Source of the DNA: Patescibacteria group bacterium
GTDB taxonomy: Bacteria > Patescibacteriota > Minisyncoccia > JAHISW01 > Tagabacteraceae
Direction: 5' to 3'
Assembly: GCA_018819015.1 (NCBI GenBank)
Contig: JAHJQY010000016.1
Span: forward strand, 18,064-82,063
DNA length: 64,000 nt
The notes below the pieces were generated by a model. It made no database searches and was not told the DNA's origin. It saw nothing but the letters and a program-made list of their open reading frames with translations. Positions 4,809 to 45,600 of the stretch are shown in pieces; position 1 is the first letter of the stretch, and every line of letters starts with the position of its first letter. The position numbers and the translations under genes were made by a program.

Positions 4809-4813
4809 ATTAA

Positions 4814-31147: not shown

Positions 31148-31345
31148 AATTAATTTAATATTTATTTAAATAATTTATTATTATTATTAAACATGTGGAT
31201 ATTGTTGATAACTTGAATTTGATTTGTAAAATTAAAGAATAAAAACATTTTTTAATTTAATAATTTGTTGATAAATATTTTATTAATCGTTGATATGTTA
31301 TTAATATAATAAATCCAATAATAACTTATAAACCAATTATCAACA
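31148..31345. promoter_or_regulatory. Candidate oriC: AT-rich dnaA-dnaN intergenic region with DnaA boxes
   Basis: Four to five TTATCCACA-like boxes, each 8/9 match: tgtggatat (31193-31201), tgttgataa (31203-31211), tgttgataa (31266-31274) and ttatcaaca (31337-31345). Confidence 0.6.
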
Positions 31346-32722
31346 TTATTTATACAAACAATCCCTTATTTTTTGTATCTCATCTTTTATTTGATAGTTG
31401 TTTTTTATATCTTTTGAGATTTTTTCATAAGCATGAATTGCTGTTGTGTGGTCTCTGCCTCCAAGTTTTTTTCCAATATATGGATAAGAAGCGTTAAAAT
31501 CTTCTCTTAATAAATACATTATAATTTGCCTTGGTAAAACATATTCTTTTCTTCTTGATTTTTCAAAAATAAATCTTTCTTCTATTTCATAAAAATCGCC
31601 TATAGTTTTAATTATTTTATTAAATGTTATTTTTTTCTTTGAATAAATAATGTTTTTATTGAATATTTCTTTTAATTCCTGGGTGGATAAATTTTTACCA
31701 AGAAGTTTTGATTGAGCCAATAGAAGATTTAAGGCACCCTCAAGCTCCCGCACATTGTTTTTTATTGTTGAAGCAATATAATTTATTGTTTCTTCCGACA
31801 AGTCAATATCTTTTGTTTGTAGTTTTGATTTTAAAATAGCTATTCTTGCTTCATATTCCGGTTCTGATATATCAGCCATCATTCCTCCTTCAAATCTAGA
31901 CCTTAATCTTTCTTCTAGATCAAGTATTGATTTTGGCGATCTGTCTGAGGAAAAAATAATTTGCTTATTTTTTTCATATAAAGAATTAAAAATATGAAAA
32001 AGTTCTTCTTGTGTTTTTGTTTTACCTGATAAAAATTGGATATCATCTATTATTAATAAATCATATTTTTTATAACCTTCTTTGAATTCATGTATTGTGT
32101 TGTTTTGTATTGAAGATATGAGCATGTTGGCGAATTTTTCCAAAGTCGTGTATTTTATTTGAGATTTTTCATTATCTTCTTTTATTTTATTGCCGATAGC
32201 TTGTAATAAATGAGTTTTACCCAAACCAACCCCTCCATATATAAATAATGGGTTATATGTTGTTCCTGGATTTTTTATCACAGCCACGGCGGCGGCATGA
32301 GCCAGTTCATTAAATGAACCAACTATAAAATCATTAAAAGTATAGCGGGGATTTAACGACTCTTTTGTTTCGTGGAATTCTTTAAATTCCATTTGTTGGC
32401 TTTCTTCTGTTTTTTGCGGCATTAATTTAATTGTCGAGATTTTTTCACAGATAGGCTTTATTTTATTACTAACAATATATTCTGTATCTTTGATTGACGG
32501 GTCTATTTTTCGTAAAGCGCTTATTATAAATTTATTATATTTGTTTTTTACCCATTCTTTACTGAAACTGTTCGGCACACCTATAAAAACAATGCCGTTT
32601 TCAGTTTTTTCTATATTGGTGTTTTTTAACCAGGTAACAAAATTAGCTTTTGATATAAGCATTTCCAATTCATTGAGTGTTTTTTCCCAGATTTGTCCTT
32701 TTTCTGTTTGTTGGGTATCCAT
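31346..32722 (-). CDS. dnaA: Chromosomal replication initiator DnaA
   Basis: 'GGVGLGKTHLLQAIGN', 'DDIQFL', and a C-terminal HTH 'LGGRDHTTAIHAYEKI'. Confidence 0.95.
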   Translation of the reverse strand: MDTQQTEKGQIWEKTLNELEMLISKANFVTWLKNTNIEKTENGIVFIGVPNSFSKEWVKNKYNKFIISALRKIDPSIKDTEYIVSNKIKPICEKISTIKLMPQKTEESQQMEFKEFHETKESLNPRYTFNDFIVGSFNELAHAAAVAVIKNPGTTYNPLFIYGGVGLGKTHLLQAIGNKIKEDNEKSQIKYTTLEKFANMLISSIQNNTIHEFKEGYKKYDLLIIDDIQFLSGKTKTQEELFHIFNSLYEKNKQIIFSSDRSPKSILDLEERLRSRFEGGMMADISEPEYEARIAILKSKLQTKDIDLSEETINYIASTIKNNVRELEGALNLLLAQSKLLGKNLSTQELKEIFNKNIIYSKKKITFNKIIKTIGDFYEIEERFIFEKSRRKEYVLPRQIIMYLLREDFNASYPYIGKKLGGRDHTTAIHAYEKISKDIKNNYQIKDEIQKIRDCLYK

Positions 32723-32841
32723 GTTTTGATTATAGCTTAATAAGAGAACAGACGTAAAATCGTCTAAATTGGTTATATGTTAACAATCTGTGTATTATTT
32801 GTGAATATTGCTTTTTGGTGATTATAATTTATAATAAAAAC

Positions 32842-32976
32842 ATGTCTGTTACCTATCAACCAAAAAAAAGAAAAAGGAAAAAAACTCACGGTTTTTTAAA
32901 AAGATCAAAAACTCCGGGCGGAAGAAATATTTTGAAAAACAGAAGGAGAAAAAATAGAAAGAAATTAACAGTCTAG
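32842..32976 (+). CDS. rpmH: 50S ribosomal protein L34
   Basis: [44 protein letters not shown], 44 aa, in the conserved position upstream of rnpA. Too short for the ORF track. Confidence 0.9.
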
Positions 32977-32985
32977 TTTAATGGC

Positions 32986-33324
32986 ATGTTGCCTTTTTTG
33001 AATAGGTTAAAAAAAGAAGACTTCAAATTATTAAAAAATTTTAAAAAAAAATTTTTTGTTTCCGATAATATTAATTTGAAGCTGTATTATTCCGGTTTCA
33101 ATCCAAGTCGTTTTTCTGTTGTTGTTCCGACAAGTTTTTCAAAGAAGGCGACAAAAAGAAATAAAATAAAAAGACAAACAAAAGCGGCTCTTTTGAATTA
33201 TTTAAAAAAAATTGAACCCGGCTTTGCTTCTGTTTTTTATTTTAAAAAAGAAACAAAAAATCTTTCTTTTGAAGAAATAAAAAAAGAGATATTGTTTCTT
33301 TTAAAAAAATCTAAAATTTTATGA
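32986..33324 (+). CDS. rnpA: RNase P protein component
   Basis: 112 aa and basic, with 'KRNKIKRQ'. Sits in the rpmH-rnpA-yidC context. Confidence 0.8.
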   Translation: MLPFLNRLKKEDFKLLKNFKKKFFVSDNINLKLYYSGFNPSRFSVVVPTSFSKKATKRNKIKRQTKAALLNYLKKIEPGFASVFYFKKETKNLSFEEIKKEILFLLKKSKIL

Positions 33325-34055
33325 TTGGGAATATTTATCAAATTGTTTTTTTTCAGCCGTTGTATAACGGTCTTATTTTTTTAACGAAAATTCTGCCGTT
33401 TAATGATTTAGGGCTGGCAATTGTTTTTTTGACGGTGATAGTCAGATTTATTTTATTTCCTTTGAGCCATAAATCAATAGTTACGCAAAAAAAAATAAAA
33501 ATTTTAGAACCGGAGATTAATAAAATTAAAAATAAGCATAAAGAAAAACAAGAAGAACAGACGAAACAAATAATGGCTTTGTATAAAAATCACGGCATAA
33601 ATCCCTTCTCTGGTTTCTTTTTAATTCTTATACAATTACCCGTTTTTATCGCTTTATATACGATTCTTAGAAATTTTTCTGCTATAAATTCCGATTTACT
33701 CTATTCTTTTTTGGGCGTTGTTGAAAAAGTGAACACATCTTTTTTGGGGTTAATAGATATTTCAAAGCCCAGTTATTTAATTTCTATTCTGGCGGGTCTT
33801 TCCCAGTTTTTTCAAATAAAATTATCTTTACCTCCCGGCAAAAAAATACCCCAAAAAGAACGTTCTTTTAAGGATGAGTTGCAAAGAAGCATGGGAATTC
33901 AGATGAGATACGTTATGCCCGTATTTATTTTTTTTATTGCCCAGCGTTTTTCCTCCGGACTGGCGCTTTATTGGACAACTTCAAACATTTTTGCTATATT
34001 TCATGAAATTATCGTAGCCAGAAAAGCAAAGAAATTAGAACAAAATGGAAGATAA
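33321..34055 (+). CDS. yidC: Membrane protein insertase YidC (short, Oxa1-like)
   Basis: 'QIMALYKNHGINPFSG' and 'LPVFIALY', with 5 TM helices. Confidence 0.85.
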   Translation: MIGNIYQIVFFQPLYNGLIFLTKILPFNDLGLAIVFLTVIVRFILFPLSHKSIVTQKKIKILEPEINKIKNKHKEKQEEQTKQIMALYKNHGINPFSGFFLILIQLPVFIALYTILRNFSAINSDLLYSFLGVVEKVNTSFLGLIDISKPSYLISILAGLSQFFQIKLSLPPGKKIPQKERSFKDELQRSMGIQMRYVMPVFIFFIAQRFSSGLALYWTTSNIFAIFHEIIVARKAKKLEQNGR

Positions 34056-34512
34056 AAAAATAGCAATAATTAAAAAATTAATGGAGGAATTGTTGGAAAA
34101 ACTGACGGTTTGCGCGGAGGTTGAAGTGCTGGAGACGACCGATGGACCAAAATTTATTGTAAAAACTCCAGAAGGTAGCTTGCTTATCGGGGAGAATGGC
34201 AAGAATTTAATTTCTTTTAATCATATTGTTAAAAAAATGGCCGGAAAAATTATCGGAAAAAACGAAGAAGAAAATTTTTCTTTTTCGTTGGACATCAATG
34301 ATTATCAGGCGAAGAAAATAGAAGATTTAAAAAATTTGGCCAGGGTGAATGCTCAGCGCGTCAGGTATTTTAAAAAGGAAATTGTTTTAAGGCCGATGAG
34401 TTCTTTTGAGAGAAGAATTGTCCACATGACTTTGTCGGATTGTCCGGATATTATAACCGATAGCATTGGCGACGAACCGGAAAGAAAAGTTACTATAAAA
34501 CCCTATCTCTAA
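34045..34512 (+). CDS. Jag/KhpB RNA-binding protein (KH + R3H)
   Basis: 'FSLDINDYQAKKIEDLKNLA' and an R3H motif 'ERRIVHMTL'. Confidence 0.8.
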   Translation: MEDKKIAIIKKLMEELLEKLTVCAEVEVLETTDGPKFIVKTPEGSLLIGENGKNLISFNHIVKKMAGKIIGKNEEENFSFSLDINDYQAKKIEDLKNLARVNAQRVRYFKKEIVLRPMSSFERRIVHMTLSDCPDIITDSIGDEPERKVTIKPYL

Positions 34513-35714
34513 TTTAATTGCAAGCTCCACAAGGCGCCGTCTTTTTTGTTTTGGAATAAAAGATAATTTTCACTATCGTCCGTGAAAAGATTTATGGCGT
34601 CAAAACCATCTTTGTCCATTATTATTTTTGTGGAGCCGTTGGCTAAATCTATAGCCCAAAGAGAATCTTCAAAAGAAATCAGTCCTTTATACCAGTCATT
34701 GGGATAATTGCCGCCGGGTATGGATTTTGGCGCGGCGCAGTATATCAGATTTTCTTTTGTTGGGCTGAAAAAACATTTTTCCGGAAGCACTTTATAAGAA
34801 AAATCGGAAAAAGTTTTTTCTTTGGCGTCGTATATTTTGGCGGAAAAGCCATTTTTTTCACTTTGGCTGTAAATTACTTTATTACCAACAGAAGAATAAA
34901 GCGCCGTCAGTCCTTTGATACCGCCGATTATTTTTGAAAAATCTCCCGTTTGGGGATTTAAACTATAAAAATATCCTTCAATTGAGGCAGACGGTTTGGT
35001 TTGAATGGTTATAATGTCTTTTTGTGGCCATTTGATTAAAAAGTTTTCAAAAGGTGAGGAAAATATTTCTTTTTGGTTTTTGTTTTCCAGAGAAGCCGTT
35101 ACGCCCGTCACCCCGTTATTTTTAAGCAGGTAAAATATTTTTTCTTGACTAGGCGACATAACTATGGCCGATAAGTTTAGGGGGAGGAAGCTCCCTTCTA
35201 GTTGGTTTGTCGTGGTAGTGGTGGATGTTGTTGGGGATGAGACTAAAAAAGTTCTTAAACTGTCAGTTTCCGGGTCAATATATTTTAAAGCGGCTTTTGA
35301 TAAATCATTGGACCAGACTGTTTCAAACACTTTTGGGATAGTGGTAATGCTGATTTGTTTTTTTTCTCCGCCACGCGGGCTTATTTCGTAAAGATGTCCG
35401 GTTGATTGCTCAAAATAATTTATCTTGCCGGTATTTTTATTGAAAACGGCGCCGGAAACGGGTATTTGTGTCAGCTGCGTTAATTTCCCCGCCGGCTGCG
35501 CTGATTCTGTTTCAGAGCTTTTGGGCCGGATACTTGCTATGGGTTGTTCAAACAGGCTTAAATCACCTCTTTCTTTGCTGGAGGGAAAAAGATAAGAGAA
35601 AAATCCTTGTTCTCCCGGCTGGGCGCTTTGCGAAGGCCAGAGAAAATATATAGCCAAACCAATAATGACTATCCCTATAATTATTCCTGTTATGATTAAT
35701 ATTTTTTTGTTCAT
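34509..35714 (-). CDS. Secreted hypothetical protein, beta-propeller-like, at the distal end of the T4SS-like operon
   Basis: N-terminal TM or signal peptide, then repeated beta-strand-rich segments. Confidence 0.4.
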   Translation of the reverse strand: MNKKILIITGIIIGIVIIGLAIYFLWPSQSAQPGEQGFFSYLFPSSKERGDLSLFEQPIASIRPKSSETESAQPAGKLTQLTQIPVSGAVFNKNTGKINYFEQSTGHLYEISPRGGEKKQISITTIPKVFETVWSNDLSKAALKYIDPETDSLRTFLVSSPTTSTTTTTNQLEGSFLPLNLSAIVMSPSQEKIFYLLKNNGVTGVTASLENKNQKEIFSSPFENFLIKWPQKDIITIQTKPSASIEGYFYSLNPQTGDFSKIIGGIKGLTALYSSVGNKVIYSQSEKNGFSAKIYDAKEKTFSDFSYKVLPEKCFFSPTKENLIYCAAPKSIPGGNYPNDWYKGLISFEDSLWAIDLANGSTKIIMDKDGFDAINLFTDDSENYLLFQNKKDGALWSLQLN

Positions 35715-35730
35715 GAAATAAAACCGATGT

Positions 35731-36147
35731 TTAAAGCGGTGTAATGCCTAAGTTTAAATTGACTAAGTCTGGATTGATGGTGGAAAGAATCAGCCACGCG
35801 CCAATAATTACCAATAATCCTAAGATGGCTTGCCAGATTCTGTTCTTTGCTTTTTCTACGGTGCTGGTATTGCCGCCGGCCATAATATATTCAAATCCGC
35901 CGACGGTTATGACAACGACAGCCAATATTCCCCCCAGTACAATGGCAAATTTTAAGACATCGTTGGCGTAAGAGGAAAAAGGTTTGACAGTTGGTGGGTT
36001 TGATGTTTGGTTGTGGGCTGTGAATGTTTCGTTTGGGACTAGTATTTCAGCCAGACTTTTGTTTGTGGCAGCAAAACTAACAATGAACAATATTCCGATT
36101 GCCGCGAAAACAAAAATTATCTTATTAAATTTTATATTTTTCTTCAT
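35731..36147 (-). CDS. TrbC/VirB2-like pilin
   Basis: 138 aa: a signal/TM segment, a ~40-aa hydrophilic stretch, then two hydrophobic helices ('FAIVLGGILAVVVITVGG' and 'AILGLLVIIGAWLIL') separated by a short loop. This is the VirB2/TrbC architecture. It is operonic with the VirB4-like ATPase. Confidence 0.5.
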   Translation of the reverse strand: MKKNIKFNKIIFVFAAIGILFIVSFAATNKSLAEILVPNETFTAHNQTSNPPTVKPFSSYANDVLKFAIVLGGILAVVVITVGGFEYIMAGGNTSTVEKAKNRIWQAILGLLVIIGAWLILSTINPDLVNLNLGITPL

Positions 36148-37121
36148 TAAAAATTGATATTTAAACTTTCCTCGGCAAATTGGAAAAAATTAGCCAAATT
36201 TTTAATTTGCAGATTTATGGCGCCGGTTCCAGTTATGCCGGTTGGCGTTTCAAAATTCATAACTTTCGGATTGTTTTCTTCCGGCGCTATGTTTTGGCCA
36301 TTCATTTTCCAATTGTAATCAAGTTTTTCCGGGTTGGAGAAAAAGAATGGCTCGGCTATAATGTTAATTGTTTTAACTAGCATTTGGAATTCGCCCTTAA
36401 TGGCTTTGTTGAACAAGGTTCCCAAGCTGGGGTTGTCTTCGTAGAAAATTATTTCCGGCTTTGCTTGGTTGGCCGGCAGTATTATGGTTTTTTCAAAAAC
36501 AGCGCTTTTGTCCGCGTTAGAAACCTTAACAGTTACGGCGTAATTATTATAATTTTCTATTTTGAACGAAAAAGAATTCTTTTTATAGCCCGAAGAATTC
36601 AATATTCCTTCATAATTTAAAGACCATTCATAAAATAAATTTGACGGCAGGATTCTTTTTCCGCCGGAAAACAGGTGGGGGATGGCGACTGCTTTTACCC
36701 GCGAGTCTATAACGGGGAGCGGCAGGCCATTATACCAATAAGGAGCGCAAGTCATGGCTTCGCACAAAAGATCTACATCGTTTCCTTGCAGTATTAAAGT
36801 TTTTGTTAATTGAATATCATTTTCGGTCGTAACAGAAACGGAAATTGTTTTGCTTTTTCCGGCATCGGGCGCCACGGTTTCTATAGAGGTTTTACCGATG
36901 CCTTTTTCGGTGGTTTTGTCTCCGATGCGCCAGATGATATTGCTTCGGCTGGCGTCAAAGCCGGAGCTGTATATTTGCGCTTTGATAGGCGAACCCGGCG
37001 TTGGATTTTGAGGAACAATACTTATGGAAACATTTTCCCCGAATGCCCGGGCATTTTGGAAAAAGGCCAATAAAACAAGAATTACGCAACCAAATAAAAA
37101 TTTTAAAATTTCTTTTCTCAT
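36147..37121 (-). CDS. Secreted hypothetical protein (T4SS-like operon)
   Basis: 324 aa with an N-terminal signal peptide. Confidence 0.4.
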   Translation of the reverse strand: MRKEILKFLFGCVILVLLAFFQNARAFGENVSISIVPQNPTPGSPIKAQIYSSGFDASRSNIIWRIGDKTTEKGIGKTSIETVAPDAGKSKTISVSVTTENDIQLTKTLILQGNDVDLLCEAMTCAPYWYNGLPLPVIDSRVKAVAIPHLFSGGKRILPSNLFYEWSLNYEGILNSSGYKKNSFSFKIENYNNYAVTVKVSNADKSAVFEKTIILPANQAKPEIIFYEDNPSLGTLFNKAIKGEFQMLVKTINIIAEPFFFSNPEKLDYNWKMNGQNIAPEENNPKVMNFETPTGITGTGAINLQIKNLANFFQFAEESLNINF

Positions 37122-37129: not shown

Positions 37130-37498
37130 TTATAACATTTCTTTGGTAAAGATTCTTACCAGTGTGGCGCCAAAACAGACAGGCAGAACTCCCACAAAGA
37201 AATCAATTATACTTCCAATTCCTATCGTTAATACTGTTTTTTCTATATTTTTTCCACCAAAATTAAGATAAAGCACTCCGCCCCAAATAAAGTTAAATAA
37301 AGGCGCGCTAAATGGAATCATGGCCAGTAGGTCAAATAACAGCGCTCCTGATAAAATCAGCCAATGTTCAGATAATTTTTTTCCGACAGACATTGCTGCC
37401 ACGGTTTTTTCAATGGGATTTTCTTCGCCTTCTTCTTTTTTTCTGTCTTCTTGTAATTGCATCAGCCGTTCGTTTTCAATTGTTGTCGCTTGGTCCAT
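37130..37498 (-). CDS. Small membrane protein (T4SS-like operon)
   Basis: 122 aa with about three TM helices. Its start overlaps the end of the VirB4 ATPase ORF. Confidence 0.4.
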   Translation of the reverse strand: MDQATTIENERLMQLQEDRKKEEGEENPIEKTVAAMSVGKKLSEHWLILSGALLFDLLAMIPFSAPLFNFIWGGVLYLNFGGKNIEKTVLTIGIGSIIDFFVGVLPVCFGATLVRIFTKEML

Positions 37499-39359
37499 CG
37501 GAATCTAATTTTTGTTTAGCCCTTTTAATGGCTATTAGTTGGGCCGGGTCAGAGGTGATAATTTGGTCTTCGGTATAAGAGGCGATTATTTTTATGGCCA
37601 CATGTTTTAAGCCGGCAAAAAACATTCCTTCTCCCACATCGGATTCCAGCAGCAAGAATTTTTCCTCGTCTGTCAGTTTGAATATATTTTGCAGAACATC
37701 AATGGCGGCTGGGGATTGTTTTAGGAGTATTTGTATCGCTGAGTTTGTTATGATGGGGCTTCCGTAGGGCGATGACAAAAAATCTCCGACATCCTGGGTA
37801 ATTGTAGCCAGCCCTAGATAATATTTTCTGCACCTTTTGGCTATGTGCGTTAAGAACGACGCGCCGTCGGGCGATTTCATCATCCACCATGCTTCATCAA
37901 TTACCAGCAGCCGTTTTTTGAGCTCCCGTCTTACGGCATTCCAAACAAATTGGATGATAAGGTACATGGCCACCGGCCTTAATTCGTCCTCCATATCGCG
38001 CACGGAAAAGGTTATGAGTTTTTGGTCTATGGCCACATTTGTCGGCTGGTTTATGAATCCGGCCCAAGTGCCTTGAGTGTATTTTTTAAGTTTTGTAGCC
38101 ATAGTCTCGCCTCCTTCCAGGCTGGCTAAAACCAATTCCAGGTCGGAAAGCACCGGCGGCACTTTGTTTGAGAAATCGGAATCCGGCGTAATATCTCTGG
38201 CGGCGTAGGTTTCCGTTATGGCTCTGTCCAGCACCGAGTCTTCTTCCGGTGTCAGTCCGCCAAGCATTATTCTGAAAAGGCCTACCAGACTTATAATATG
38301 CGATCTTAAAATATCCGATGGCGCTTCGTCTTCTCTTGGCAGAGGCAAGTCAAAAGGGTTGATGTGGTGTTCCGAACTCAATGAGATATTAAAATAATCT
38401 CCGCCGACCGCTTGGGTCAAATATTTATATTCCATTTCCGGGTCAATAATAATAACACTGGTTCCGAACATCAGCGATCTCAGTATTTCAAGTTTTGTGG
38501 CGTAAGATTTTCCGGCGCCGGCCTTGGCAAATGTTACGGAGTTGTAATTTTCAAGAGAAAAGCGGTCAAACAAAACCAAGCTGTTGTTGTGCCTGTTGAT
38601 GCCGTAAAGAATGCCCTTGTTGGAGGTCAGGTCAAAAGAAACAAAAGGGAATAAACTTGAAAGGGGAGAAGAATTCATTTTGCAGTGCACTTCCAATTTG
38701 TCTGTTCCCAAAGGAAAAGATGTTTCAATGCCCTCTGTTTGCTGAAAGAGCGCCGGTTTGGCATAAATCAGTTTTGCTTCAAGCGCCGATCGAATTTCTT
38801 TTTCCAGTGAATTTAATTCTTCAAAATTGTCCGCATAAACCGTGATATATAAACCCAGATTGAAAAGCCGCTCCTGCGCTTGCTGTAATTTATCTCGCAA
38901 GTCTTCCAAGTCTTGATAAGCGGTATCCAGCATCGGGTCTCTGATGAGCCCTTTTTCTTCCCGTATGTGAATTTGCGATTGGACTTCGGCGACTTTTTTC
39001 TGCAGTTGTTTCAAAACACTGGAAGTGTCAACCGGATGGATGAAGATTGAAATATCAAAAACTTTATCCATGTTTATAATCGGGGAAAACCAATTGGCCG
39101 ACAAAAAGCGCGGATAGGAAAAAATGAAAATAGTTTTCGCTATTTTGTTGCCGATTCTTATATAATTGGGAGCAACCTGAAGCGCCGAAGGAGCTATGAT
39201 GTCTTTAAGTTCCAAAACCCCGGAGCTGTAAATTTCTCCCGGATGAACCGGCAGAATTTTTTCTTCTTCTTTGTTTTTGTTAAATAGTTGCATATTCTTG
39301 TTTTGGTATTGATGTTCTTTCTTCTTCCTCCGGGTTGTAGAGGCCGTAGAAAAGTTCAA
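37476..39359 (-). CDS. VirB4/TraC/TrbE-family type IV secretion ATPase, ATPase portion
   Basis: Walker A 'AKAGAGKSYA' and Walker B 'LLVIDEAWWMM'. The segment 'DIIAPSALQV...IGNKIAKTIFIFSYP' resembles the VirB4 family of Gram-positive conjugation systems. The likely start is 'MQLFNKNK' at 39293. Confidence 0.7.
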   Translation of the reverse strand: MNFSTASTTRRKKKEHQYQNKNMQLFNKNKEEEKILPVHPGEIYSSGVLELKDIIAPSALQVAPNYIRIGNKIAKTIFIFSYPRFLSANWFSPIINMDKVFDISIFIHPVDTSSVLKQLQKKVAEVQSQIHIREEKGLIRDPMLDTAYQDLEDLRDKLQQAQERLFNLGLYITVYADNFEELNSLEKEIRSALEAKLIYAKPALFQQTEGIETSFPLGTDKLEVHCKMNSSPLSSLFPFVSFDLTSNKGILYGINRHNNSLVLFDRFSLENYNSVTFAKAGAGKSYATKLEILRSLMFGTSVIIIDPEMEYKYLTQAVGGDYFNISLSSEHHINPFDLPLPREDEAPSDILRSHIISLVGLFRIMLGGLTPEEDSVLDRAITETYAARDITPDSDFSNKVPPVLSDLELVLASLEGGETMATKLKKYTQGTWAGFINQPTNVAIDQKLITFSVRDMEDELRPVAMYLIIQFVWNAVRRELKKRLLVIDEAWWMMKSPDGASFLTHIAKRCRKYYLGLATITQDVGDFLSSPYGSPIITNSAIQILLKQSPAAIDVLQNIFKLTDEEKFLLLESDVGEGMFFAGLKHVAIKIIASYTEDQIITSDPAQLIAIKRAKQKLDSDGPSDNN

Positions 39360-39945
39360 TTAATTCTTCTGTATTAAGAGGCACGGTTCTTATTCCCGCG
39401 CGCGCCAGTCCCTGCGTTACCGTGTCAGCGCGCTGCAATAGCTGGTTTTTTTCTTTTTCAAAATCATTTTGGCTTATGGCCGGCGTTTTTTTGCCGCTGC
39501 TTAATATTTTATCCAAAAAAGCGGAGAAAGGATTATTTTTTTTCTCAAAGATGGTTGAGGAGTAAGGGATCACAATATAAAATGTTTTGTTTACTATTTT
39601 AGTTGAGGCTACGAAGTCTCTGATAAAATCTATATATTCTTTGGTTTGGATTTTCAGCAGTTCGTCGGTTTGCTCCCGTTCTTTTTTTCTCAGCGCCTCA
39701 AGGTATGTTTCTATGTTTAGTCCTCTTGATTGGATGTAAAATTGCACATGAAAATCCAGAGAGTTTAAAAAGTTTTGGTATTGCGATATGGTTGCCTCCT
39801 GTTCGTCTGCCGATTTCAGGGCGAAGTTTAAGGAAGACGCCATTAAAATCATACGCATTGAGCCGTCTTTAAGTATAATCACGCCGTCTCTGATTTCTTT
39901 TATGGAAACAAATTCTTGTGATGGTGCGCTTTTTATATTTGCCAT
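39280..39945 (-). CDS. VirB4 N-terminal domain encoded as a separate ORF (split or frameshifted VirB4)
   Basis: 'VSIKEIRDGVIILKDGSMRMILMASSLNFALKSADEQE' matches the N-terminal region of VirB4/TraE-type ATPases. The reading frame differs by +1 from the downstream ATPase ORF, with a 14-nt overlap. Confidence 0.5.
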   Translation of the reverse strand: MANIKSAPSQEFVSIKEIRDGVIILKDGSMRMILMASSLNFALKSADEQEATISQYQNFLNSLDFHVQFYIQSRGLNIETYLEALRKKEREQTDELLKIQTKEYIDFIRDFVASTKIVNKTFYIVIPYSSTIFEKKNNPFSAFLDKILSSGKKTPAISQNDFEKEKNQLLQRADTVTQGLARAGIRTVPLNTEELIELFYGLYNPEEEERTSIPKQEYATI

Positions 39946-39953: not shown

Positions 39954-40367
39954 TTAATTTTTTTCTATTTCCTGTTTAATGTCTAAGCTCCATGCCAGGT
40001 CTCTAAGCTTGTTTTTGGTCAGGGCGGGTAATGGTGTTGGCGGGGTTTCTTTTTCTGACAAAATGCGCTGTATTTTTTGCGGTTCGGGTTCTCTTTTTTT
40101 CCAGGTATAAATTTTATTTTTCATCAAATAATTAAATCCATTTTCTGCGACATTGATGAGTGGTTTGTTGTGAATTTTGTAAAAAGCCAGCGCCACCGCC
40201 AGCGCCCCTACCAGCATTCCTAGTATAATAAAAAGAAAGAAGGGGAGGGAGATGTAAAGCAGGAAGATGGCGGCGCCTCCGCCAGCCAAATAAAGAAACT
40301 GGCTTAAGGTCAGCGGCCCGAAAATTTTGTCTTCAACTTCAATAAATTGTGGTACTTGAAATTTCAT
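39954..40367 (-). CDS. PrgI/VirB3-like 2-TM protein
   Basis: 'QVPQFIEVEDKIFGPLTLSQFLYLAGGG' followed by two TM helices, resembling the PrgI family. Lies immediately upstream of VirB4. Confidence 0.45.
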   Translation of the reverse strand: MKFQVPQFIEVEDKIFGPLTLSQFLYLAGGGAAIFLLYISLPFFLFIILGMLVGALAVALAFYKIHNKPLINVAENGFNYLMKNKIYTWKKREPEPQKIQRILSEKETPPTPLPALTKNKLRDLAWSLDIKQEIEKN

Positions 40368-40372: not shown

Positions 40373-40903
40373 CTAACTTAGCGGTTCTCGATAAGGATCA
40401 ATGTCTTTAGTATAGCTTGTAATTTCCGGTTTGGCGCGGAAAGTTTTGCTTCTTTGCTCAAAAATGTCTTTTTTATTTTTTTCCGCGATTGGTTCGTTGT
40501 TGGAAAAAGTTTTCAGGGGATTTATGACTGGCGGCATTTGCTGTTCCGGTTGCTCTTTTTCTTTTTCTTCTTTCTCGGTTTCTCCACTATGAATTTTTCT
40601 CAATGATTCCCTAATTTTGGAAAATATTTTTTCGTTTATTTCATGGGCCACTTTTCTGGCCAATTCTTTTTGGAGGTCCATTCGGTTGGCCAAATTGGAG
40701 ATGAATTCGGCTGGATGAGTGATGCCCAACATTAGCAGTCCGGTCTCGTCCGCCATGATGCCCAATTTTTCCGTGGTCAGATTATTTTCTTTGGCGATAC
40801 TTTGCAGAATTTCAGCCGTGTTCACGCCGAAATACGCTTCTTTCACATCCGGCGGAAGTTTTTGATAAAGTTCGTTTAATTTTTCTGATGTTAAATTTGC
40901 CAT
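40373..40903 (-). CDS. Hypothetical cytoplasmic protein (T4SS-like operon)
   Basis: 176 aa, hydrophilic, with a charged C-terminus. Confidence 0.4.
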   Translation of the reverse strand: MANLTSEKLNELYQKLPPDVKEAYFGVNTAEILQSIAKENNLTTEKLGIMADETGLLMLGITHPAEFISNLANRMDLQKELARKVAHEINEKIFSKIRESLRKIHSGETEKEEKEKEQPEQQMPPVINPLKTFSNNEPIAEKNKKDIFEQRSKTFRAKPEITSYTKDIDPYREPLS

Positions 40904-40909: not shown

Positions 40910-42721
40910 TTATTTTCGTTTTGTTATTTTTTCCCATTCTTTTTCGGCATGTTCTCTTGTTCCTTCTTCTCCTCCCCGAGTTTTTTTTATATTTTGAGCG
41001 GCCGGGCCAATCGTCCAAGCCATAGCCGCTTTGTTGTTGGCCGCCTTAAGGTTTTCAGTCAGTTGATTAAAATCGTCAAATATTTTATCGGCATTTTTTC
41101 CGCCTTTTTCCGCAATCTCATTAAGCTCTTTCGGGCTTATCTTTTGATAGAGACTGGTTTTTTCTTCCGGAGTCAGTTTTTCCATTCTGTTTATGTAATC
41201 TTTTACTTCATATCCTCTATATTCTTTGCCGGTTTTCTCTTTTTCTTCTACTGAAAGAGTGTTCACTAAATTGTCATAAGTTGATCGGAAGGCAGGATTT
41301 TTCTCCAGCAGTTCAACTCGTTCTCTGGCAGACATTTTCTTAAACATTTCTTTTTGCGCTTGTTTGTCGGCTAGCGCTCCCTTGCCCAAACTGGTCAAAT
41401 AGGTGGCTCTTTCCGCCGCCGGTAGATTCATTCCTCTTTGAACATAGGTTTCTATTTGTTCTTTTCTGCCGCCAACTCCGGCCAATTGTTTCGCCTTGTC
41501 CATTGTCCATCCGCCCAAGAGAGGGCTAGCCGCGACAAACCTTTCCATTTTTGGGGAGCCGGCAATACCTTCTCCGGCTCTGGCAATAGTTCGTCTGGCG
41601 GCGAATCGTGGAATGGCCCCGGCATAACCCAGCATTTTATTTTTGGCTCCCGTGGCAAAAGATATGGCGCTGGTCGCTCCCGCCCCGCCCATTTTTTTCG
41701 CCACCGTTAAACAGCCGAGCATGAGTATTATAAGCGTAACAAATTGGATGGCCAGCGCGGCGGTATTAGAGTCCGGCTGTAATATGGCGGTGGCGTAGCT
41801 GGCATCGGTTGTTCCTAAAAGAGTTTGATAAGACCCTTCACTGATAATTTTGGCCACCAGATAAAAAAGGAAAAGAAAAGCCGGCGCGAAAAGCGCTTGG
41901 CTGAAAAGAGTGTCCCACCATTGGCTGGCGTAAGATTTTGTTTTTGGCAGAACCATAGCGATAAAAGCCAAAGGAGCTAGCAGTATTAAAAATTGCAGAG
42001 CTATGGACCGGACGAGAAATAGCAACCCGCCGGCAAAAAGCACAAAAGAAGTTATTAGTATCATGGCGCAGCCGAAAACGGAAATTATAATTATCTGCTG
42101 GTAGGTGGCCGTTGGCTGGCCCGCAACAACAAAACTGTCACCTTTTGGCTCAAAAATGGTTTGTATTTTTAACCCTTCTGCGAAAATTTCTGAAATGTTA
42201 CTTTTTCCGTTGACAGTCATACTTTGGTAAAATTCATTGGCAAGGATGTTTGTTGCGTTAATTACCGTTGTTGTTATTAGCATACTGAAATTTACCAAGA
42301 GCGCTACAATGACAACTGTTCTTAAAAGTTCTTTCATTCCATAACCGCTGATTTGCAGAATGGTGGCAATGCCGATATAGATTAGGATGAATATGAAAAA
42401 TAGGTTGGCCAAATCTCTGGTTATTGTCCAGCCGGTAGCCACTAGACCGCCGGTCTGGGTTAATTTGGCGTTGTTTATGGAGTATGTTATAGATGCGTCA
42501 AAAAGACCAGCCGCCACATACAAAACTTTAGAGCAGACTTCCATCATTACGTTTCCCAGATTACTTAGAAGTGATTTTACCATTCCGCCCGGGTTGGACA
42601 TAACATCGGCCGGGTTTTCCGCGCTATAATTATCTTCTCCATAACTCGTTTTTATTCCAATTGGCCCCAGGACTATCACCAGCGCTATAATTATTATTAA
42701 AATTTTTCTTTTATTGGACAT
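40910..42721 (-). CDS. VirB6/TrbL-like polytopic membrane protein with charged C-terminal tail
   Basis: 603 aa: a signal peptide, at least six TM helices, and a ~200-aa K/E-rich C-terminal tail. This matches the VirB6 architecture. Confidence 0.45.
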   Translation of the reverse strand: MSNKRKILIIIIALVIVLGPIGIKTSYGEDNYSAENPADVMSNPGGMVKSLLSNLGNVMMEVCSKVLYVAAGLFDASITYSINNAKLTQTGGLVATGWTITRDLANLFFIFILIYIGIATILQISGYGMKELLRTVVIVALLVNFSMLITTTVINATNILANEFYQSMTVNGKSNISEIFAEGLKIQTIFEPKGDSFVVAGQPTATYQQIIIISVFGCAMILITSFVLFAGGLLFLVRSIALQFLILLAPLAFIAMVLPKTKSYASQWWDTLFSQALFAPAFLFLFYLVAKIISEGSYQTLLGTTDASYATAILQPDSNTAALAIQFVTLIILMLGCLTVAKKMGGAGATSAISFATGAKNKMLGYAGAIPRFAARRTIARAGEGIAGSPKMERFVAASPLLGGWTMDKAKQLAGVGGRKEQIETYVQRGMNLPAAERATYLTSLGKGALADKQAQKEMFKKMSARERVELLEKNPAFRSTYDNLVNTLSVEEKEKTGKEYRGYEVKDYINRMEKLTPEEKTSLYQKISPKELNEIAEKGGKNADKIFDDFNQLTENLKAANNKAAMAWTIGPAAQNIKKTRGGEEGTREHAEKEWEKITKRK

Positions 42722-44639
42722 TGACCGTAATGGGTATTGAATTATAAAGTCCTTCGTCGTCCGTCACCCGCAAGTTGATTATTTTTGTTCCGCTGGTTGA
42801 ATATTGCACTTGTATTATTCCCGGTTTGGCATTTGGCGCGGCGCTGATTCCTTCAAAACCATTGCCTATCGGCGTTTCCGTTGTGTCTCTGCTTTGGCTT
42901 TCGTCAAAAGTTCCGTCTCGGTTCCAGTCGGCTATATACCAATCGTAAAGGCCGTCGTTGTCAAAATCCCATTCGTACATGGCGATTTTGGGTGTTTTGT
43001 CGTTGTCTTTGGAAAGAGAAGGGTCAAGAGTAAAAAATTGGTCTTGCATGGCCGAACTTGGGGCGGTTATTTTTGCCTCCGGCGTTATTAGGTCTAAAAT
43101 TTCAGGAAAGTCATAATTGGGAAAAGGAGGTATGACTCCGATTTCGTGGACAATTCCTTCCGGAGTTCCTTCCGTGCTTACTCCAAACCACTTGATTGGC
43201 AAAAATAAACTAGCCTCAATTTTTTTCATAAAGCGTTCAGAAGATGTGTTCGGAGCGGAGCCGTCGGTTGTGTAATAGATAGTCGCCGGAATATTTGAAA
43301 GTAGACTGATACTGCTGGGTCCGACAGCCACGGCGGCCGTGGACGGAGTTTTTTCAGTAGATAGAAAAGGCGGGAAAAGATTTATGGTATGCCATTTTTC
43401 TTTGTTTCCGCTCTGGTCTATGCCGAACCATTTTAAGGTGGCAGACGAAATTATCTCTATTGGTCCGGTGTATGGGATAGAGGATAGTCCGGGCTCTGTT
43501 CCATCAAGCGTGTAGTAAATAATAGCATCTTCATTGGCTGTGATTTTGATATGCCAGCCATCGGATGGAGAGGCGGTTGTGACCGGAGCTGAATCATCCA
43601 TAAGGCCGGAAGCGGATACTGCCGAAGTCGCCCCTGCGGAACTTGTATCAGACGCGGTTATGGCCATGACACCTTCTTGGACCAGTCGGTTTATCAGCGC
43701 GTCTGTAATGGCGACAACATAAGATTCCCATTCTTCGTTGCTTATCAGCCAATCAAGGTTTGTTTGGACTGATTTTGATGTGGCATCGGCAATTATTTTG
43801 CCAGGTGTTCTTGTTTGCCATTTTTCGCAAGTGCATTCAGGTGGTACCTCGTTCTCTTTGTATGAACCTGTTTGAAGAGATGTATTGTTAGTTCCTTCAA
43901 TACGGCAAGTCATTTGTTTGCAAACTTTATCATTTAAAAATCCAACACCGGATTCCGCTTCACTTTTAGCCGCCTCTTTGGCTTTTACTGCCGCGGCAAT
44001 TTGTTGATTTGAAGTTTTGATAAAAAGTCCGTACGGGTTGTTTTGTTCTTCGCTGGTTGCAATCCAGGCTTTCCAGCCGCCATTTTGGAAATTTCCCATA
44101 AAGTCGTCAAAATTCGCTCCTACTTCAGAAAGGGTGCACATTGCCGTGTTGGTGAATGTTTGGGGATTTCTTAGGCCTAGATTTATTCTTATTGCCCAGC
44201 CGGGCTGACAAAGCGCGGACATAACCTGGTCTCCGACTAATTGTTGAACTGCTTGACCGCCTGCTATTTCAGCCGTATCTCTTAAAAAACCTTTCCAGTC
44301 GGTGACAAATTTTGGCTTGCCCCCGCCCTGTATCCATTCTACGATTTGATTGACCATAGTATCTAAAAGCACTTTTCTGAATTTGGCCATAACTGCTTTC
44401 ATAAGACTGTTTTGTTTTATAAAGGCCCATTCAAATGCCTCGACGACATATTGTTGTCCGGCTATTGCGGCTTGTTTTACTTGGGTCGCTGCGTCTGATA
44501 ACCATTGGCCGATATCAACACTTAGGTCTGTCCTGATTGTTGGCCAGGCAGCGCGGCTTTTTTGAGGATAAAATAAACCTCCGACGCAGGACGCGCAGAT
44601 TGTAAAAATTAAAAATATAAACAAAATTTTATTCCGCAT
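42711..44639 (-). CDS. Secreted surface protein with chitobiase-C-like (CHB_HEX_C) repeats and a PKD domain
   Basis: Signal peptide. 'IIYYTLDGTEPGLSSIPYTGPIEI' and 'TIYYTTDGSAPNTSS' motifs. C-terminal 'YEWDFDNDGLYDW...ITVNVQ' (PKD WxFxDG motif). Confidence 0.5.
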   Translation of the reverse strand: MRNKILFIFLIFTICASCVGGLFYPQKSRAAWPTIRTDLSVDIGQWLSDAATQVKQAAIAGQQYVVEAFEWAFIKQNSLMKAVMAKFRKVLLDTMVNQIVEWIQGGGKPKFVTDWKGFLRDTAEIAGGQAVQQLVGDQVMSALCQPGWAIRINLGLRNPQTFTNTAMCTLSEVGANFDDFMGNFQNGGWKAWIATSEEQNNPYGLFIKTSNQQIAAAVKAKEAAKSEAESGVGFLNDKVCKQMTCRIEGTNNTSLQTGSYKENEVPPECTCEKWQTRTPGKIIADATSKSVQTNLDWLISNEEWESYVVAITDALINRLVQEGVMAITASDTSSAGATSAVSASGLMDDSAPVTTASPSDGWHIKITANEDAIIYYTLDGTEPGLSSIPYTGPIEIISSATLKWFGIDQSGNKEKWHTINLFPPFLSTEKTPSTAAVAVGPSSISLLSNIPATIYYTTDGSAPNTSSERFMKKIEASLFLPIKWFGVSTEGTPEGIVHEIGVIPPFPNYDFPEILDLITPEAKITAPSSAMQDQFFTLDPSLSKDNDKTPKIAMYEWDFDNDGLYDWYIADWNRDGTFDESQSRDTTETPIGNGFEGISAAPNAKPGIIQVQYSTSGTKIINLRVTDDEGLYNSIPITVNVQ

Positions 44640-45600
44640 ATGTCTGGGCTATTTTTAAAAAATTTTGTATTAATCCTGCCATTTCTTCTCTTATTTTTTG
44701 GTTTTCCTGAAGAGCCAAGACCGTTTTTAAGGGATCGCTGTTTACTTCTTTGACGCTTTCATAAACTTTTTTGGTCGCCATAAGCAATTCTGTTTCTCTT
44801 TTGTGGATTTGCAGAAAATCAGATGGTACGGCAATTTTTTTCATATTGGCAATGGCGATTTCAAAATAGTTTATAAATTCATCAACTTTTTTAAAATTTT
44901 CTGTTTCAATTGCCTCTGACAGAATTTCTTCTTCGCTCTTACCTTGGTAAGGGCTTTTCGGCATGGCTTTTTCTATTTCGCTGACGTATTTCTGCACGGC
45001 CGTGAAAGAATTATCACTACCGGTTTTTATTTCAGACAAAGCGATTTGCGGATTGAGGCCGGCAATAAAATTTAAAAGCGCTTGCCCGGTATTTTTATCA
45101 ACCATGCTTAATGGGTTTGAAAGGTCAACTTGTTCCAGTTGTGTCGGGTCTTGGATTTGTGAACTGATGATTTGGGCGAAGCTTTGTGTTAAGTTGACCG
45201 GTTGCTGTGATTTTTGATTGTCGGCTAAAAAATTATTTTCGTCTTTTTTACCGGTTTTCGGATTGGAGGTTGGGTCTGTTGGGCTGTATCCCAGTATTGT
45301 TTCTTCTTTGTCCGAGTATCCGTCTTTGTCGGTGTCTTTGTTGTTGGGGTCGGTTTTCCAGAGCGCTTCTTCCCAGTTTCTTAATCCGTCGTCGTCGTTG
45401 TCCAAGGTCGCGCTTTCAATCACATCAGGGGAGATGACTTGGTTGGCGATTTTTTCATAAATTGTTTTCGGTTCTTTGTTTTTAGCAAGCCAAAACCAGC
45501 CGGCTACAACAAAAAATGCCAGCAAAAGCAGGATTGCCAGAACAATCAAATATATTCTGTTTTTCACATTTAAATTATAACACTTTTTTCGCTTTTCCAC
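44629..45600 (-). CDS. Membrane-anchored protein with thrombospondin-type-3-like Ca-binding repeats
   Basis: N-terminal TM, then 'DNDDDGLRNWEE...DPNNKDTDKDGYSDKEE'. First gene of the T4SS-like operon. Confidence 0.45.
   Translation of the reverse strand: MEKRKKCYNLNVKNRIYLIVLAILLLLAFFVVAGWFWLAKNKEPKTIYEKIANQVISPDVIESATLDNDDDGLRNWEEALWKTDPNNKDTDKDGYSDKEETILGYSPTDPTSNPKTGKKDENNFLADNQKSQQPVNLTQSFAQIISSQIQDPTQLEQVDLSNPLSMVDKNTGQALLNFIAGLNPQIALSEIKTGSDNSFTAVQKYVSEIEKAMPKSPYQGKSEEEILSEAIETENFKKVDEFINYFEIAIANMKKIAVPSDFLQIHKRETELLMATKKVYESVKEVNSDPLKTVLALQENQKIREEMAGLIQNFLKIAQTYAE

What the first reader, a model, noticed from the sequence alone, without database searches (positions are those of the whole stretch)
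37476..39945. VirB4 encoded as two overlapping ORFs (N-terminal domain + ATPase) in different frames
The 221-aa ORF at 39280-39945 carries the VirB4 N-terminal signature ('IKEIRDGVIILKDGSMRMIL...'). The 605-aa ATPase continues from 'MQLFNKNK' at 39293. Together they total ~826 aa, a normal VirB4 size. The two are in different frames and overlap by 14 nt near A-rich runs (gaagaagaagaaaaaatt). Three explanations are possible: a genuine two-piece VirB4, a programmed or accidental frameshift at the homopolymer, or a pseudogene.
Basis: seen in the sequence. Interest (0 to 1): 0.5.

Follow-up and report, generated by a model that had tools for sequence, protein, structure and literature searches.

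The report
Conserved two-gene VirB4 (TrsD-like + ATPase)
The two overlapping reading frames are two separate, intact genes that together make up the VirB4 motor of a type IV secretion system; this split is conserved across Patescibacteria and some Gram-positive plasmids and is already described, so it is neither a frameshift nor a pseudogene.

Summary
A 221-aa ORF (39945..39280, minus strand) and a 605-aa ORF (39293..37476) overlap by 14 nt, and the second lies in the +1 frame. Together they tile a full-length VirB4.

The evidence selects the first, a genuine two-piece VirB4.
- The top 120 homologues of each ORF are stand-alone proteins, 209-238 aa and 600-644 aa.
- In 69 orthologous loci the first gene always ends in a stop and the second starts at its own ATG.
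- The relative frame in those loci is 0, +1 or +2 (14, 32 and 23 loci). The spacing runs from a 4-nt overlap to a 470-nt gap, usually 1-8 nt. No frameshift site is conserved.
- Two independent assemblies reproduce the junction exactly.
- The ATPase motifs are intact.
- Overlaps of 11-23 nt are routine in this operon.

The same split, at the same breakpoint, occurs in S. aureus pSK41 (TrsD + TraE) and in a Pontibacillus plasmid. Enterococcus pCF10 PrgJ is the fused form. A 2025 survey (PMC12102498) reports TrsD, a remote homologue of the VirB4 N-terminus, as the T4SS component its searches retrieved most often in Patescibacteria, usually encoded near virB4 and, in many classes, near dnaA, as here.

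Verdict: real, ordinary, already known.

The parts
39280..39945 (-). ORF1, 221 aa: a TrsD-like / 'TraC-like' (PF26593) protein that corresponds to the detached N-terminal ~200 residues of VirB4.
   Evidence: NCBIfam hits to N-terminal positions of VirB4 profiles, plus TrsD/TraD NF041427 at E 2.5e-4. Pfam TraC_F_IV at E 1.1e-4, below the cut-off. PF26593 TraC-like is precomputed for the identical protein. The AF2 model has pLDDT 78.9, and its top 14 Foldseek PDB hits are all R388 TrwK/VirB4 chains. At least 7,827 homologues exist, and the top 120 are 209-238 aa.
37476..39293 (-). ORF2, 605 aa: a short-form VirB4 ATPase. It holds the second half of the VirB4 N-terminal region plus the C-terminal RecA-like ATPase domain.
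   Evidence: NF045971 conju_CD1110 scores 360 bits (cut-off 325) over profile positions 167-733 of 752. Pfam P-loop_TraG, AAA_10 and DUF87 match. Residues 224-580 match the T. pseudethanolicus VirB4 C-terminal domain 4AG5 at E 5.6e-47. The top 120 homologues are 600-644 aa.
39280..39293 (-). The 14-nt overlap (ATGCAACTATTTAA) between the ORF2 start codon and the ORF1 stop codon. It is a lineage-specific variant of a junction that usually has a 1-8 nt spacer.
   Evidence: The closest relatives have 7-nt and 12-nt spacers.
38505..38528 (-). Walker A motif AKAGAGKS of ORF2.
   Evidence: Translation. G259, G261, K262 and S263 are invariant in alignment A2.
37893..37910 (-). Walker B motif LLVIDE of ORF2.
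   Evidence: Translation. D466 and E467 are invariant in alignment A2.
39954..40367 (-). PrgI family (VirB3-like) membrane protein, 137 aa, ending 8 nt upstream of ORF1.
   Evidence: Pfam PF12666 PrgI at E 6.6e-8, 33.4 bits, above the cut-off of 27. The order PrgI/TrsC-like, then TrsD, then VirB4 is the same in pSK41 and Pontibacillus.
40910..42721 (-). VirB6/TrbL-like polytopic membrane protein, 603 aa.
   Evidence: Pfam PF04610 TrbL at E 1.5e-5, 25.4 bits, just under the cut-off of 25.9.
40373..40903 (-). 176-aa operon gene of unknown function, between the VirB6-like and PrgI genes.
   Evidence: No Pfam hit. A gene sits at the same position in the relatives L075 and L076.
37130..37498 (-). 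122-aa gene that overlaps the 3' end of ORF2 by 23 nt. Its product is unannotated, and its sequence suggests a small membrane protein.
   Evidence: A 121-122 aa gene sits at the same position in L075 and L076. No Pfam hit.
36147..37121 (-). 324-aa operon gene with a hydrophobic N-terminus, function unknown.
   Evidence: no Pfam hit.
35731..36147 (-). T4SS pilin (VirB2-like), 138 aa.
   Evidence: Pfam PF18895 T4SS_pilin at E 2.6e-10, 40.7 bits, above the cut-off of 26.6.

Best explanation
These are two separate, functional genes of a chromosomal, monoderm-type (MPF-FATA-like) type IV secretion system in a Patescibacteria (CPR) bacterium. An ancient gene fission left the first ~200 residues of VirB4 as a stand-alone TrsD-like protein (ORF1). 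The rest of the N-terminal region and the ATPase domain form a ~600-aa short VirB4 (ORF2).

Both genes are transcribed in one operon: VirB6-like, a 176-aa gene, PrgI/VirB3-like, TrsD-like, VirB4, small membrane proteins, pilin. ORF2 is translated from its own ATG at 39293. In this strain the usual short spacer has been lost, so that ATG lies 14 nt inside the end of ORF1.

The following steps are inferred, not shown.
- ORF2 initiation is probably coupled to ORF1 translation, which would help keep the two halves in matched amounts.
- The two polypeptides probably reassemble non-covalently into a VirB4-like hexameric motor.
- The TrsD-like piece probably provides the membrane-proximal contact to VirB3/PrgI that the VirB4 N-terminal domain makes in the R388 structure.
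For: 1. The two ORFs tile VirB4 without overlap. ORF1 matches positions 5-134 of 752 in NF045971 and 101-239 of 894 in NF045975. ORF2 matches positions 167-733 of 752 and 287-893 of 894. In the fused pCF10 PrgJ (796 aa), ORF2 residue 28 aligns to PrgJ residue 223, which leaves about 195 N-terminal PrgJ residues with no counterpart in ORF2.

2. The ORF1 fold resembles VirB4. The top 14 Foldseek PDB hits are all R388 TrwK/VirB4 chains (best E 4e-3, probability 0.69-1.0, TMq 0.32-0.46).

3. The split is conserved. At least 7,827 ORF1 homologues exist, and the top 120 are 209-238 aa. The top 120 ORF2 homologues are 600-644 aa.

4. In the 69 loci from GTDB species representatives that carry both genes, ORF1 ends in a stop and ORF2 has its own ATG. 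The relative frames 0, +1 and +2 occur in 14, 32 and 23 loci. The spacing is 1-15 nt in 47 loci, a 4-nt ATGA overlap in 2, and 19-470 nt in 20.

5. The breakpoint is the same outside CPR. ORF2 residue 1 aligns to residue 3 of pSK41 TraE (E 2e-41), and TraE follows trsD. In the Pontibacillus plasmid, a 274-aa protein (32% identity to ORF1, E 2e-30) overlaps a 621-aa VirB4 (34% identity to ORF2, E 1e-126) by 11 nt.

6. The junction is reproduced in two independent assemblies.

7. Walker A and Walker B are intact and invariant.

8. The operon has other overlaps of 11, 11, 23 and 1 nt, and only 1 of 56 genes in the window has a Shine-Dalgarno-like core. Neither the overlap nor the lack of an SD is therefore special to this junction.

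9. PMC12102498 reports 2,272 TrsD homologues in Patescibacteria, 1,664 of them near virB4. It describes TrsD as remotely homologous to the VirB4 N-terminal portion, and notes that the TrsD homologue is listed as essential in Ca. Southlakia epibionticum.
Against: - Direct similarity of ORF1 to the TrsD prototype is weak: BLASTP E 0.002 over 31 residues, hhalign E 0.022 with probability 2% although colinear over 166 columns, and NF041427 at 21 bits against a cut-off of 200.
- The ORF1 profile did not detect the PrgJ N-terminus in a profile-versus-single-sequence comparison.
- The Foldseek scores to TrwK are moderate (TMq about 0.4).
- Physical association of the two polypeptides, translational coupling and the contact with PrgI are all inferred. 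None was tested.
- The AF2 model of ORF2 was too poor (pLDDT 59) to use.
Confidence: 0.9

Rival explanations
1. Programmed +1 ribosomal frameshifting, or transcriptional slippage, in the overlap or the A-rich region produces a single fused ~826-aa VirB4, at least as a minor product.
For: ORF2 is in the +1 frame, and its frame is open for 80 nt upstream of the ORF1 stop. A-rich and GAA-rich runs flank the junction. +1 is also the commonest relative frame among the orthologous loci (32 of 69).
Against: - The relative frame is not conserved: 14, 32 and 23 loci for frames 0, +1 and +2. In the 14 in-frame loci a stop codon separates the genes.
- In 20 loci the genes are 19-470 nt apart.
- No slippery motif is shared at the junctions.
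- ORF2 orthologues always have their own ATG at the homologous position. Their N-termini align: MQLFNK, MELFNK, MDLSKLFK.
- The quoted A-rich run lies downstream of the ORF1 stop.
- The GGAGG-like sequence is about 45 nt upstream of the stop, not at the spacing seen in prfB (the prfB comparison rests on my own knowledge).
- The ORF1 frame is the conserved one up to its last ~15 residues: T192, E197, L198, N204 and P205 are invariant.
Confidence: 0.02
2. The split is a pseudogene or a sequencing or assembly error: a recently broken, once-fused VirB4 with a 1-nt indel at a homopolymer.
For: The two ORFs add up to a normal VirB4 length (826 aa) and are offset by one nucleotide.
Against: - Independent assemblies from two other sequencing runs give the identical junction.
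- The same split is found in every one of the 69 orthologous loci and in the top 120 homologues of each half, at 43-87% identity. That means long-term purifying selection on both halves.
- The catalytic motifs are intact.
- The split also exists in Bacillota plasmids.
Confidence: 0.01
3. ORF1 is an independent accessory protein: a diverged duplicate of the VirB4 N-terminus with its own role, rather than the missing piece of VirB4. On this view ORF2 is a self-sufficient short VirB4.
For: No function is assigned to TrsD (PMC12102498). In Gracilibacteria the TrsD homologues are not encoded next to virB4. In 20 of 69 loci the two genes are 19-470 nt apart.
Against: - The profile coordinates of ORF1 and ORF2 are complementary rather than redundant.
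- ORF2 and pSK41 TraE both start at the position that corresponds to about residue 195-220 of the fused PrgJ.
- The two genes are adjacent, in the order N-terminal piece then C-terminal piece, in all 69 loci.
- I found no case of a full-length VirB4 together with a TrsD-like gene, though I did not search for one systematically.
Confidence: 0.07

Closest known systems
TrsD + VirB4 pair of the Patescibacteria T4SS (Quinonero-Coronel et al., Microb Genom 2025, PMC12102498)
   Same: The gene pair and gene set match: TrsD-like, VirB4, PrgI/VirB3, VirB6 and a VirB2-like pilin. The location is chromosomal and next to dnaA and dnaN, as the paper reports for Paceibacteria. The identical proteins are recorded in NCBI as Patescibacteria group bacterium.
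   Different: Nothing substantive. This strain has a 14-nt overlap instead of the usual 1-8 nt spacer. In the passages I read, the paper calls TrsD a remote homologue of the VirB4 N-terminus with no assigned function. Its main text never uses the word 'split', and it does not describe complementary halves of VirB4.
TrsD/TraD + TrsE/TraE of staphylococcal plasmids pGO1 and pSK41 (the MPF-FATA prototype subclass)
   Same: A ~225-aa protein is encoded immediately upstream of a short VirB4 (672 aa) and downstream of a small protein in the VirB3 position. The breakpoint is the same: ORF2 residue 1 aligns to TraE residue 3.
   Different: The sequences are very diverged. ORF1 against TrsD gives E 0.002-0.02, and ORF1 falls far below the NCBIfam TrsD cut-off. 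pSK41 is a conjugative plasmid with a relaxase and a coupling protein. I did not search the window for a relaxase.
Split VirB4 of Bacillota megaplasmids (for example Pontibacillus sp. ALD_SL1, NZ_CP062975)
   Same: This is the closest non-CPR relative I found: 32% and 34% identity for the two halves. It has the same gene order (pilin-like ... a large 779-aa protein, a small 116-aa protein, the TrsD-like gene, VirB4), and the two halves overlap by 11 nt. ORF1 homologues were found in 361 plasmid records, mostly Bacillus.
   Different: It is plasmid-borne, and its N-terminal piece is longer (274 aa).
Fused monoderm VirB4: PrgJ of Enterococcus pCF10 (CD1110 family), and diderm TrwK/VirB4 of R388
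   Same: ATPase core and N-terminal region are homologous. ORF2 matches PrgJ residues 223-774 (hhalign probability 99.7%), and ORF2 residues 251-547 match TrwK residues 446-735. The ORF1 fold resembles TrwK.
   Different: These are single polypeptides of about 800 aa. Here the first ~200 residues are a separate gene product.

Membership tests
VirB4 / CD1110-family T4SS ATPase (ORF2) | The score against the curated family model is above the cut-off. | tested here: met
   NF045971 scores 360.2 bits against a cut-off of 325, E 2.3e-107, even without the N-terminal piece.
VirB4 / CD1110-family T4SS ATPase (ORF2) | The Walker A and Walker B NTPase motifs are intact, and the C-terminal domain is homologous to a solved VirB4 C-terminal domain. 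| tested here: met
   AKAGAGKS and LLVIDE are present and invariant in 32 homologues. 4AG5 matches at E 5.6e-47.
VirB4 / CD1110-family T4SS ATPase (ORF2) | It is encoded together with other mating-pair-formation genes (VirB3, VirB6, pilin). | tested here: met
   PrgI, a TrbL/VirB6-like protein and T4SS_pilin lie in the same operon.
VirB4 / CD1110-family T4SS ATPase (ORF2) | The single polypeptide includes the complete N-terminal region (~800 aa). | tested here: not met
   ORF2 begins at profile position 167 of 752, which corresponds to PrgJ residue ~195-223. The missing part is encoded by ORF1.
TrsD/TraD family (pGO1/pSK41 prototype) / Pfam PF26593 TraC-like (ORF1) | The score against the curated NCBIfam TrsD/TraD model is above the cut-off. 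| tested here: not met
   NF041427 scores 21 bits against a cut-off of 200, E 2.5e-4. ORF1 is a remote homologue, not a member of the narrow staphylococcal subfamily.
TrsD/TraD family (pGO1/pSK41 prototype) / Pfam PF26593 TraC-like (ORF1) | The Pfam PF26593 (TraC-like) domain is present. | tested here: inconclusive
   PF26593 is precomputed for the identical protein P0001 and for all 120 top homologues. The local Pfam scan returned only PF11130 TraC_F_IV, below its cut-off. The assignment therefore rests on the databases' precomputed hits.
TrsD/TraD family (pGO1/pSK41 prototype) / Pfam PF26593 TraC-like (ORF1) | A stand-alone protein of about 200-230 aa, homologous to the VirB4 N-terminus, is encoded directly upstream of a short (~600-670 aa) VirB4. 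| tested here: met
   Searches show the homology and fold. Searches show the position. One search shows the same breakpoint as pSK41 TraE.
Programmed ribosomal frameshift gene (prfB- or dnaX-like) | The frame relationship and the slippery or stimulatory site are conserved across orthologues, and the downstream ORF has no independent start. | tested here: not met
   Frames 0, +1 and +2 occur in 14, 32 and 23 loci. The spacing runs from a 4-nt overlap to a 470-nt gap. ORF2 has its own ATG in all 69 loci, and no motif is shared.
Pseudogene / assembly error | The disruption is absent from close orthologues or not reproducible between assemblies, and the sequence decays. | tested here: not met
   The split is present in all orthologues, the junction is identical in two independent assemblies, and the motifs are intact.

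The most novel reading that the evidence does not exclude
The TrsD-like protein and the short VirB4 may be the two halves of one ancient fission event. The breakpoint is shared by Patescibacteria, Bacillus-type megaplasmids and the staphylococcal pGO1/pSK41 systems. If so, the split would be a synapomorphy that links the patescibacterial T4SS to one particular MPF-FATA sublineage, and TrsD (currently 'no function assigned') would simply be the VirB3-binding, membrane-proximal module of VirB4. A less likely addition is that the overlap in this strain allows a trace of +1 frameshifted fusion product.
Probability: 0.5. Interest if true: 0.3.

Novelty: already known. Interest (0 to 1): 0.1.

Why it matters
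It matters mainly for annotation. A frame change between two halves of a familiar protein looks like a frameshift or a pseudogene, but here it is the normal conserved architecture of the patescibacterial T4SS motor. It should not be 'repaired' or flagged as disrupted.

The T4SS itself is biologically important. According to the papers I read, its genes, including the TrsD homologue, are essential for epibiotic growth in Ca. Southlakia epibionticum. This locus adds no new component.

The one modest addition is evidence that the two genes are complementary pieces of VirB4. They share a breakpoint with pSK41 TraD/TraE and with Bacillota plasmids, which suggests a testable function for TrsD.

Tried and rejected
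- PDB sequence search with ORF1 found nothing meaningful; the best hit was a HicB antitoxin at E 0.06.
- hhalign of the ORF1 profile against single sequences was weak or uninformative: pSK41 TrsD gave E 0.022 with probability 2%, and PrgJ gave no N-terminal match. The profile is shallow (Neff 2.2) and the targets are single sequences.
- The AF2 model of ORF2 from a shallow alignment (73-86% identity) was poor (pLDDT 59). I did not use it for fold search.
- An Rfam scan of the window and of eight loci with long spacers between the two genes found only four tRNAs, all in the window. No known RNA family lies at or between the genes.
- A Shine-Dalgarno sequence driving ORF2 was considered. There is none within -18..-4, but 55 of 56 genes in the window also lack one, so this says nothing specific about the junction.
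- prfB-like +1 frameshifting at AUU-UAA-C was considered and rejected, because there is no conserved context and the frames vary among orthologues.
- Not used: the third large protein search, the exhaustive representative search, and the metagenome and viral contig scans. The question was settled without them.
Full report
**1.

On the minus strand, a 221-aa ORF runs 39945..39280 and ends in TAA at 39282-39280. It contains 'IKEIRDGVIILKDGSMRMIL'. An ATG at 39293 opens a 605-aa ORF ('MQLFNKNKEEEKILP...') that ends at 37476.

The second ORF is in the +1 frame relative to the first, and the two overlap by 14 nt (ATGCAACTATTTAA). One detail needs correcting. It cannot be the place where reading passes from ORF1 into ORF2.

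**2. What the two ORFs are**

ORF2 is a VirB4-type ATPase:
- It exceeds the curated cut-off of NCBIfam NF045971, 'VirB4-like conjugal transfer ATPase, CD1110 family' (360 bits against 325). The match covers only profile positions 167-733 of 752.
- It matches Pfam P-loop_TraG, AAA_10 and DUF87.
- Residues 224-580 match the solved C-terminal domain of Thermoanaerobacter pseudethanolicus VirB4 (4AG5, E 5.6e-47), and residues 251-547 match R388 TrwK residues 446-735.
- Walker A (AKAGAGKS, 38528..38505) and Walker B (LLVIDE, 37910..37893) are present and invariant among homologues.

ORF1 matches the missing N-terminal positions of the same full-length profiles:
- NF045971 positions 5-134 of 752 (E 5.3e-8).
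- NF045975 positions 101-239 of 894 (E 6.8e-11).
- The stand-alone TrsD/TraD family NF041427, weakly (E 2.5e-4).

An AlphaFold2 model of ORF1 (pLDDT 78.9) has R388 TrwK/VirB4 chains as its top 14 Foldseek hits in the PDB, with best E 4e-3, probability up to 1.0 and TMq 0.32-0.46. The two ORFs therefore tile a VirB4 without redundancy. In the fused PrgJ of Enterococcus pCF10 (796 aa), ORF2 residue 28 aligns to PrgJ residue 223, which leaves about 195 N-terminal residues with no counterpart in ORF2.

**3. The split is conserved and not accidental**

ORF1 has at least 7,827 database homologues. The best 120 are all stand-alone proteins of 209-238 aa from Patescibacteria, and all carry the precomputed Pfam family PF26593, 'TraC-like'. 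The best 120 homologues of ORF2 are all 600-644 aa.

I fetched 71 orthologous loci from GTDB species-representative genomes and measured the junction in the 69 that hold both genes:
- The ORF1 orthologue always ends in a stop codon.
- The ORF2 orthologue always begins at its own ATG at the homologous position.
- The relative frame is 0, +1 or +2 in 14, 32 and 23 loci.
- The distance from stop to ATG is 1 nt in 14 loci and 4 nt in 10. It is 1-15 nt in 47 loci, a 4-nt ATGA overlap in 2, and 19-470 nt in 20.
- In the 14 in-frame loci a genuine stop codon separates the genes.

No slippery sequence is shared at the junctions. This pattern fits two independently initiated genes and does not fit conserved programmed frameshifting.

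The closest relatives (67-69% identity for ORF1, 84-87% for ORF2) have 7-nt and 12-nt spacers. The alignment of the protein ends suggests that the window's lineage lost the spacer, which placed the ATG inside the last codons of ORF1.

**4. The junction is not an artefact or a pseudogene**

Two independent assemblies from different sequencing runs (SRR10598174, SRR26275509) carry the identical junction, including the overlap. They differ from the window by a single synonymous change nearby.

Within the operon, neighbouring genes overlap by 11, 11, 14, 23 and 1 nt. Only 1 of 56 genes in the window has a Shine-Dalgarno-like core. A 14-nt out-of-frame overlap without an SD is therefore the local norm.

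**5. Context**

The pair sits in a T4SS operon on the minus strand:

| Coordinates | Product |
|---|---|
| 40910-42721 | VirB6/TrbL-like protein |
| 40373-40903 | 176-aa protein, function unknown |
| 39954-40367 | PrgI/VirB3-like protein |
| 39280-39945 | ORF1 (TrsD-like) |
| 37476-39293 | ORF2 (VirB4 ATPase) |
| 37130-37498 | 122-aa protein |
| 36147-37121 | 324-aa protein |
| 35731-36147 | T4SS pilin |

Upstream lie two large genes for probable surface proteins with CHB_HEX_C_1, Fn3_assoc, PKD and TSP3 repeats. Downstream lie jag/R3H, yidC, dnaA (31346-32722) and dnaN (30044-31147). The cluster is therefore chromosomal and next to the replication-origin genes.

**6. Comparison with what is known**

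The arrangement is described in the literature. Quinonero-Coronel et al. 2025 (PMC12102498) surveyed Patescibacteria. They report:
- 2,474 virB4 genes.
[quoted passage not shown] TrsD was the T4SS component their HMM search retrieved most often, and 1,664 of the homologues lie near virB4.
- PrgI/VirB3, VirB6 and VirB2-like pilins in the same clusters.
- Frequent proximity of the cluster to dnaA and dnaN in Paceibacteria.
- That the TrsD homologue of Ca. Southlakia epibionticum is listed as essential.

The prototype pair is TrsD/TraD + TrsE/TraE of staphylococcal pGO1/pSK41. In pSK41, trsD (227 aa) is followed after a 14-nt spacer by a 672-aa VirB4. ORF2 aligns to that VirB4 from residue 1 to residue 3, so the breakpoint is the same.

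A closer non-CPR relative is a Pontibacillus megaplasmid, where a 274-aa protein (32% identical to ORF1, E 2e-30) overlaps a 621-aa VirB4 (34% identical to ORF2, E 1e-126) by 11 nt. ORF1 homologues occur in 361 plasmid records, mostly Bacillus.

ORF1 is not a member of the narrow NCBIfam TrsD/TraD subfamily (21 bits against a cut-off of 200). It is best filed under the broader TraC-like/TrsD-like family.

**7. Mechanism**

Shown here:
- Two intact genes.
- Complementary coverage of VirB4.
- Conserved adjacency and order.
- An independent ATG for ORF2.
- Intact ATPase motifs.

Inferred:
- The two polypeptides associate to rebuild a VirB4-like hexameric motor.
- The TrsD-like piece supplies the membrane-proximal, VirB3-contacting part, by analogy with the VirB4 N-terminal domain in the R388 structure. 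This comparison rests on established knowledge, not on a test made here.
- The tight spacing or overlap couples ORF2 translation to ORF1 translation.

**8. What the evidence cannot exclude**

- A trace of +1 frameshifted fusion product in this particular strain cannot be ruled out, but nothing supports it.
- TrsD could be an accessory paralogue rather than the missing VirB4 piece. The complementary profile coordinates and the shared breakpoint make this less likely.

**9. Verdict**

The arrangement is ordinary for this phylum and already published, so interest is low.

Noticed in passing
window 30044-34512: dnaN (30044-31147, -), dnaA (31346-32722, -), yidC (33321-34055, +) and a jag/R3H gene (34045-34512, +) lie next to the T4SS operon, separated from it only by one unannotated 401-aa gene (34509-35714). 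The secretion system therefore sits at the presumed replication origin, as PMC12102498 reports for Paceibacteria.
   Followed up: partly
window, all 56 likely genes: Only 1 of 56 genes has a Shine-Dalgarno-like core (GGAG, GAGG or AGGA) within -18..-4 of its start. The leaders are A/T-rich. This genome appears to initiate translation largely without an SD.
   Followed up: partly
L027, L028, L051, L055, L057 (between the TrsD-like and VirB4 genes, about locus positions 4650-5000; about 1860-2020 in L027): In these loci the two genes are separated by 119-288 nt. The inserts end in a hairpin-like sequence followed by a shared 'CTAACGGG-ATG' (or 'CTAATAGG-ATG') just before the VirB4 start. An example is gagcaaagtcgcgaaacgatcgcgatctgcttctaacgggATG. 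No Rfam family matched. This could be a small intergenic element or a regulatory structure.
   Followed up: partly
window 42711-45600 (-): Two genes at the head of the T4SS operon each overlap the next gene by 11 nt. They encode probable surface proteins: 642 aa with CHB_HEX_C_1, Fn3_assoc and PKD domains, and 323 aa with a bacterial TSP3 repeat. A protein with the same Fn3_assoc and CHB_HEX_C_1 domains sits at the same position in relative L076. They may be adhesins associated with the T4SS.
   Followed up: no
window 47832-49592 (+) and 46423-47460 (+): A type II/IV secretion ATPase (T2SSE with an MshEN domain, PilB/GspE-like) and a histidine kinase lie a few kb from the T4SS operon. This suggests a type IV pilus locus nearby.
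   Followed up: no
window 37476-37498: The 122-aa gene downstream of VirB4 starts 23 nt inside the end of the VirB4 gene, a longer overlap than the one that was flagged. Genes of 121-122 aa sit at the same position in L075 and L076.
   Followed up: partly
L036 (JAMPXW010000001.1) and many 'uncultured Candidatus Saccharibacteria' TPA records among L001-L071: One orthologous locus comes from a MAG labelled Burkholderiales, and many TPA MAGs are labelled Saccharibacteria. Their TrsD-like and VirB4 genes nonetheless resemble the Paceibacteria-type locus. The record titles may be mislabelled, or the bins contaminated.
   Followed up: no
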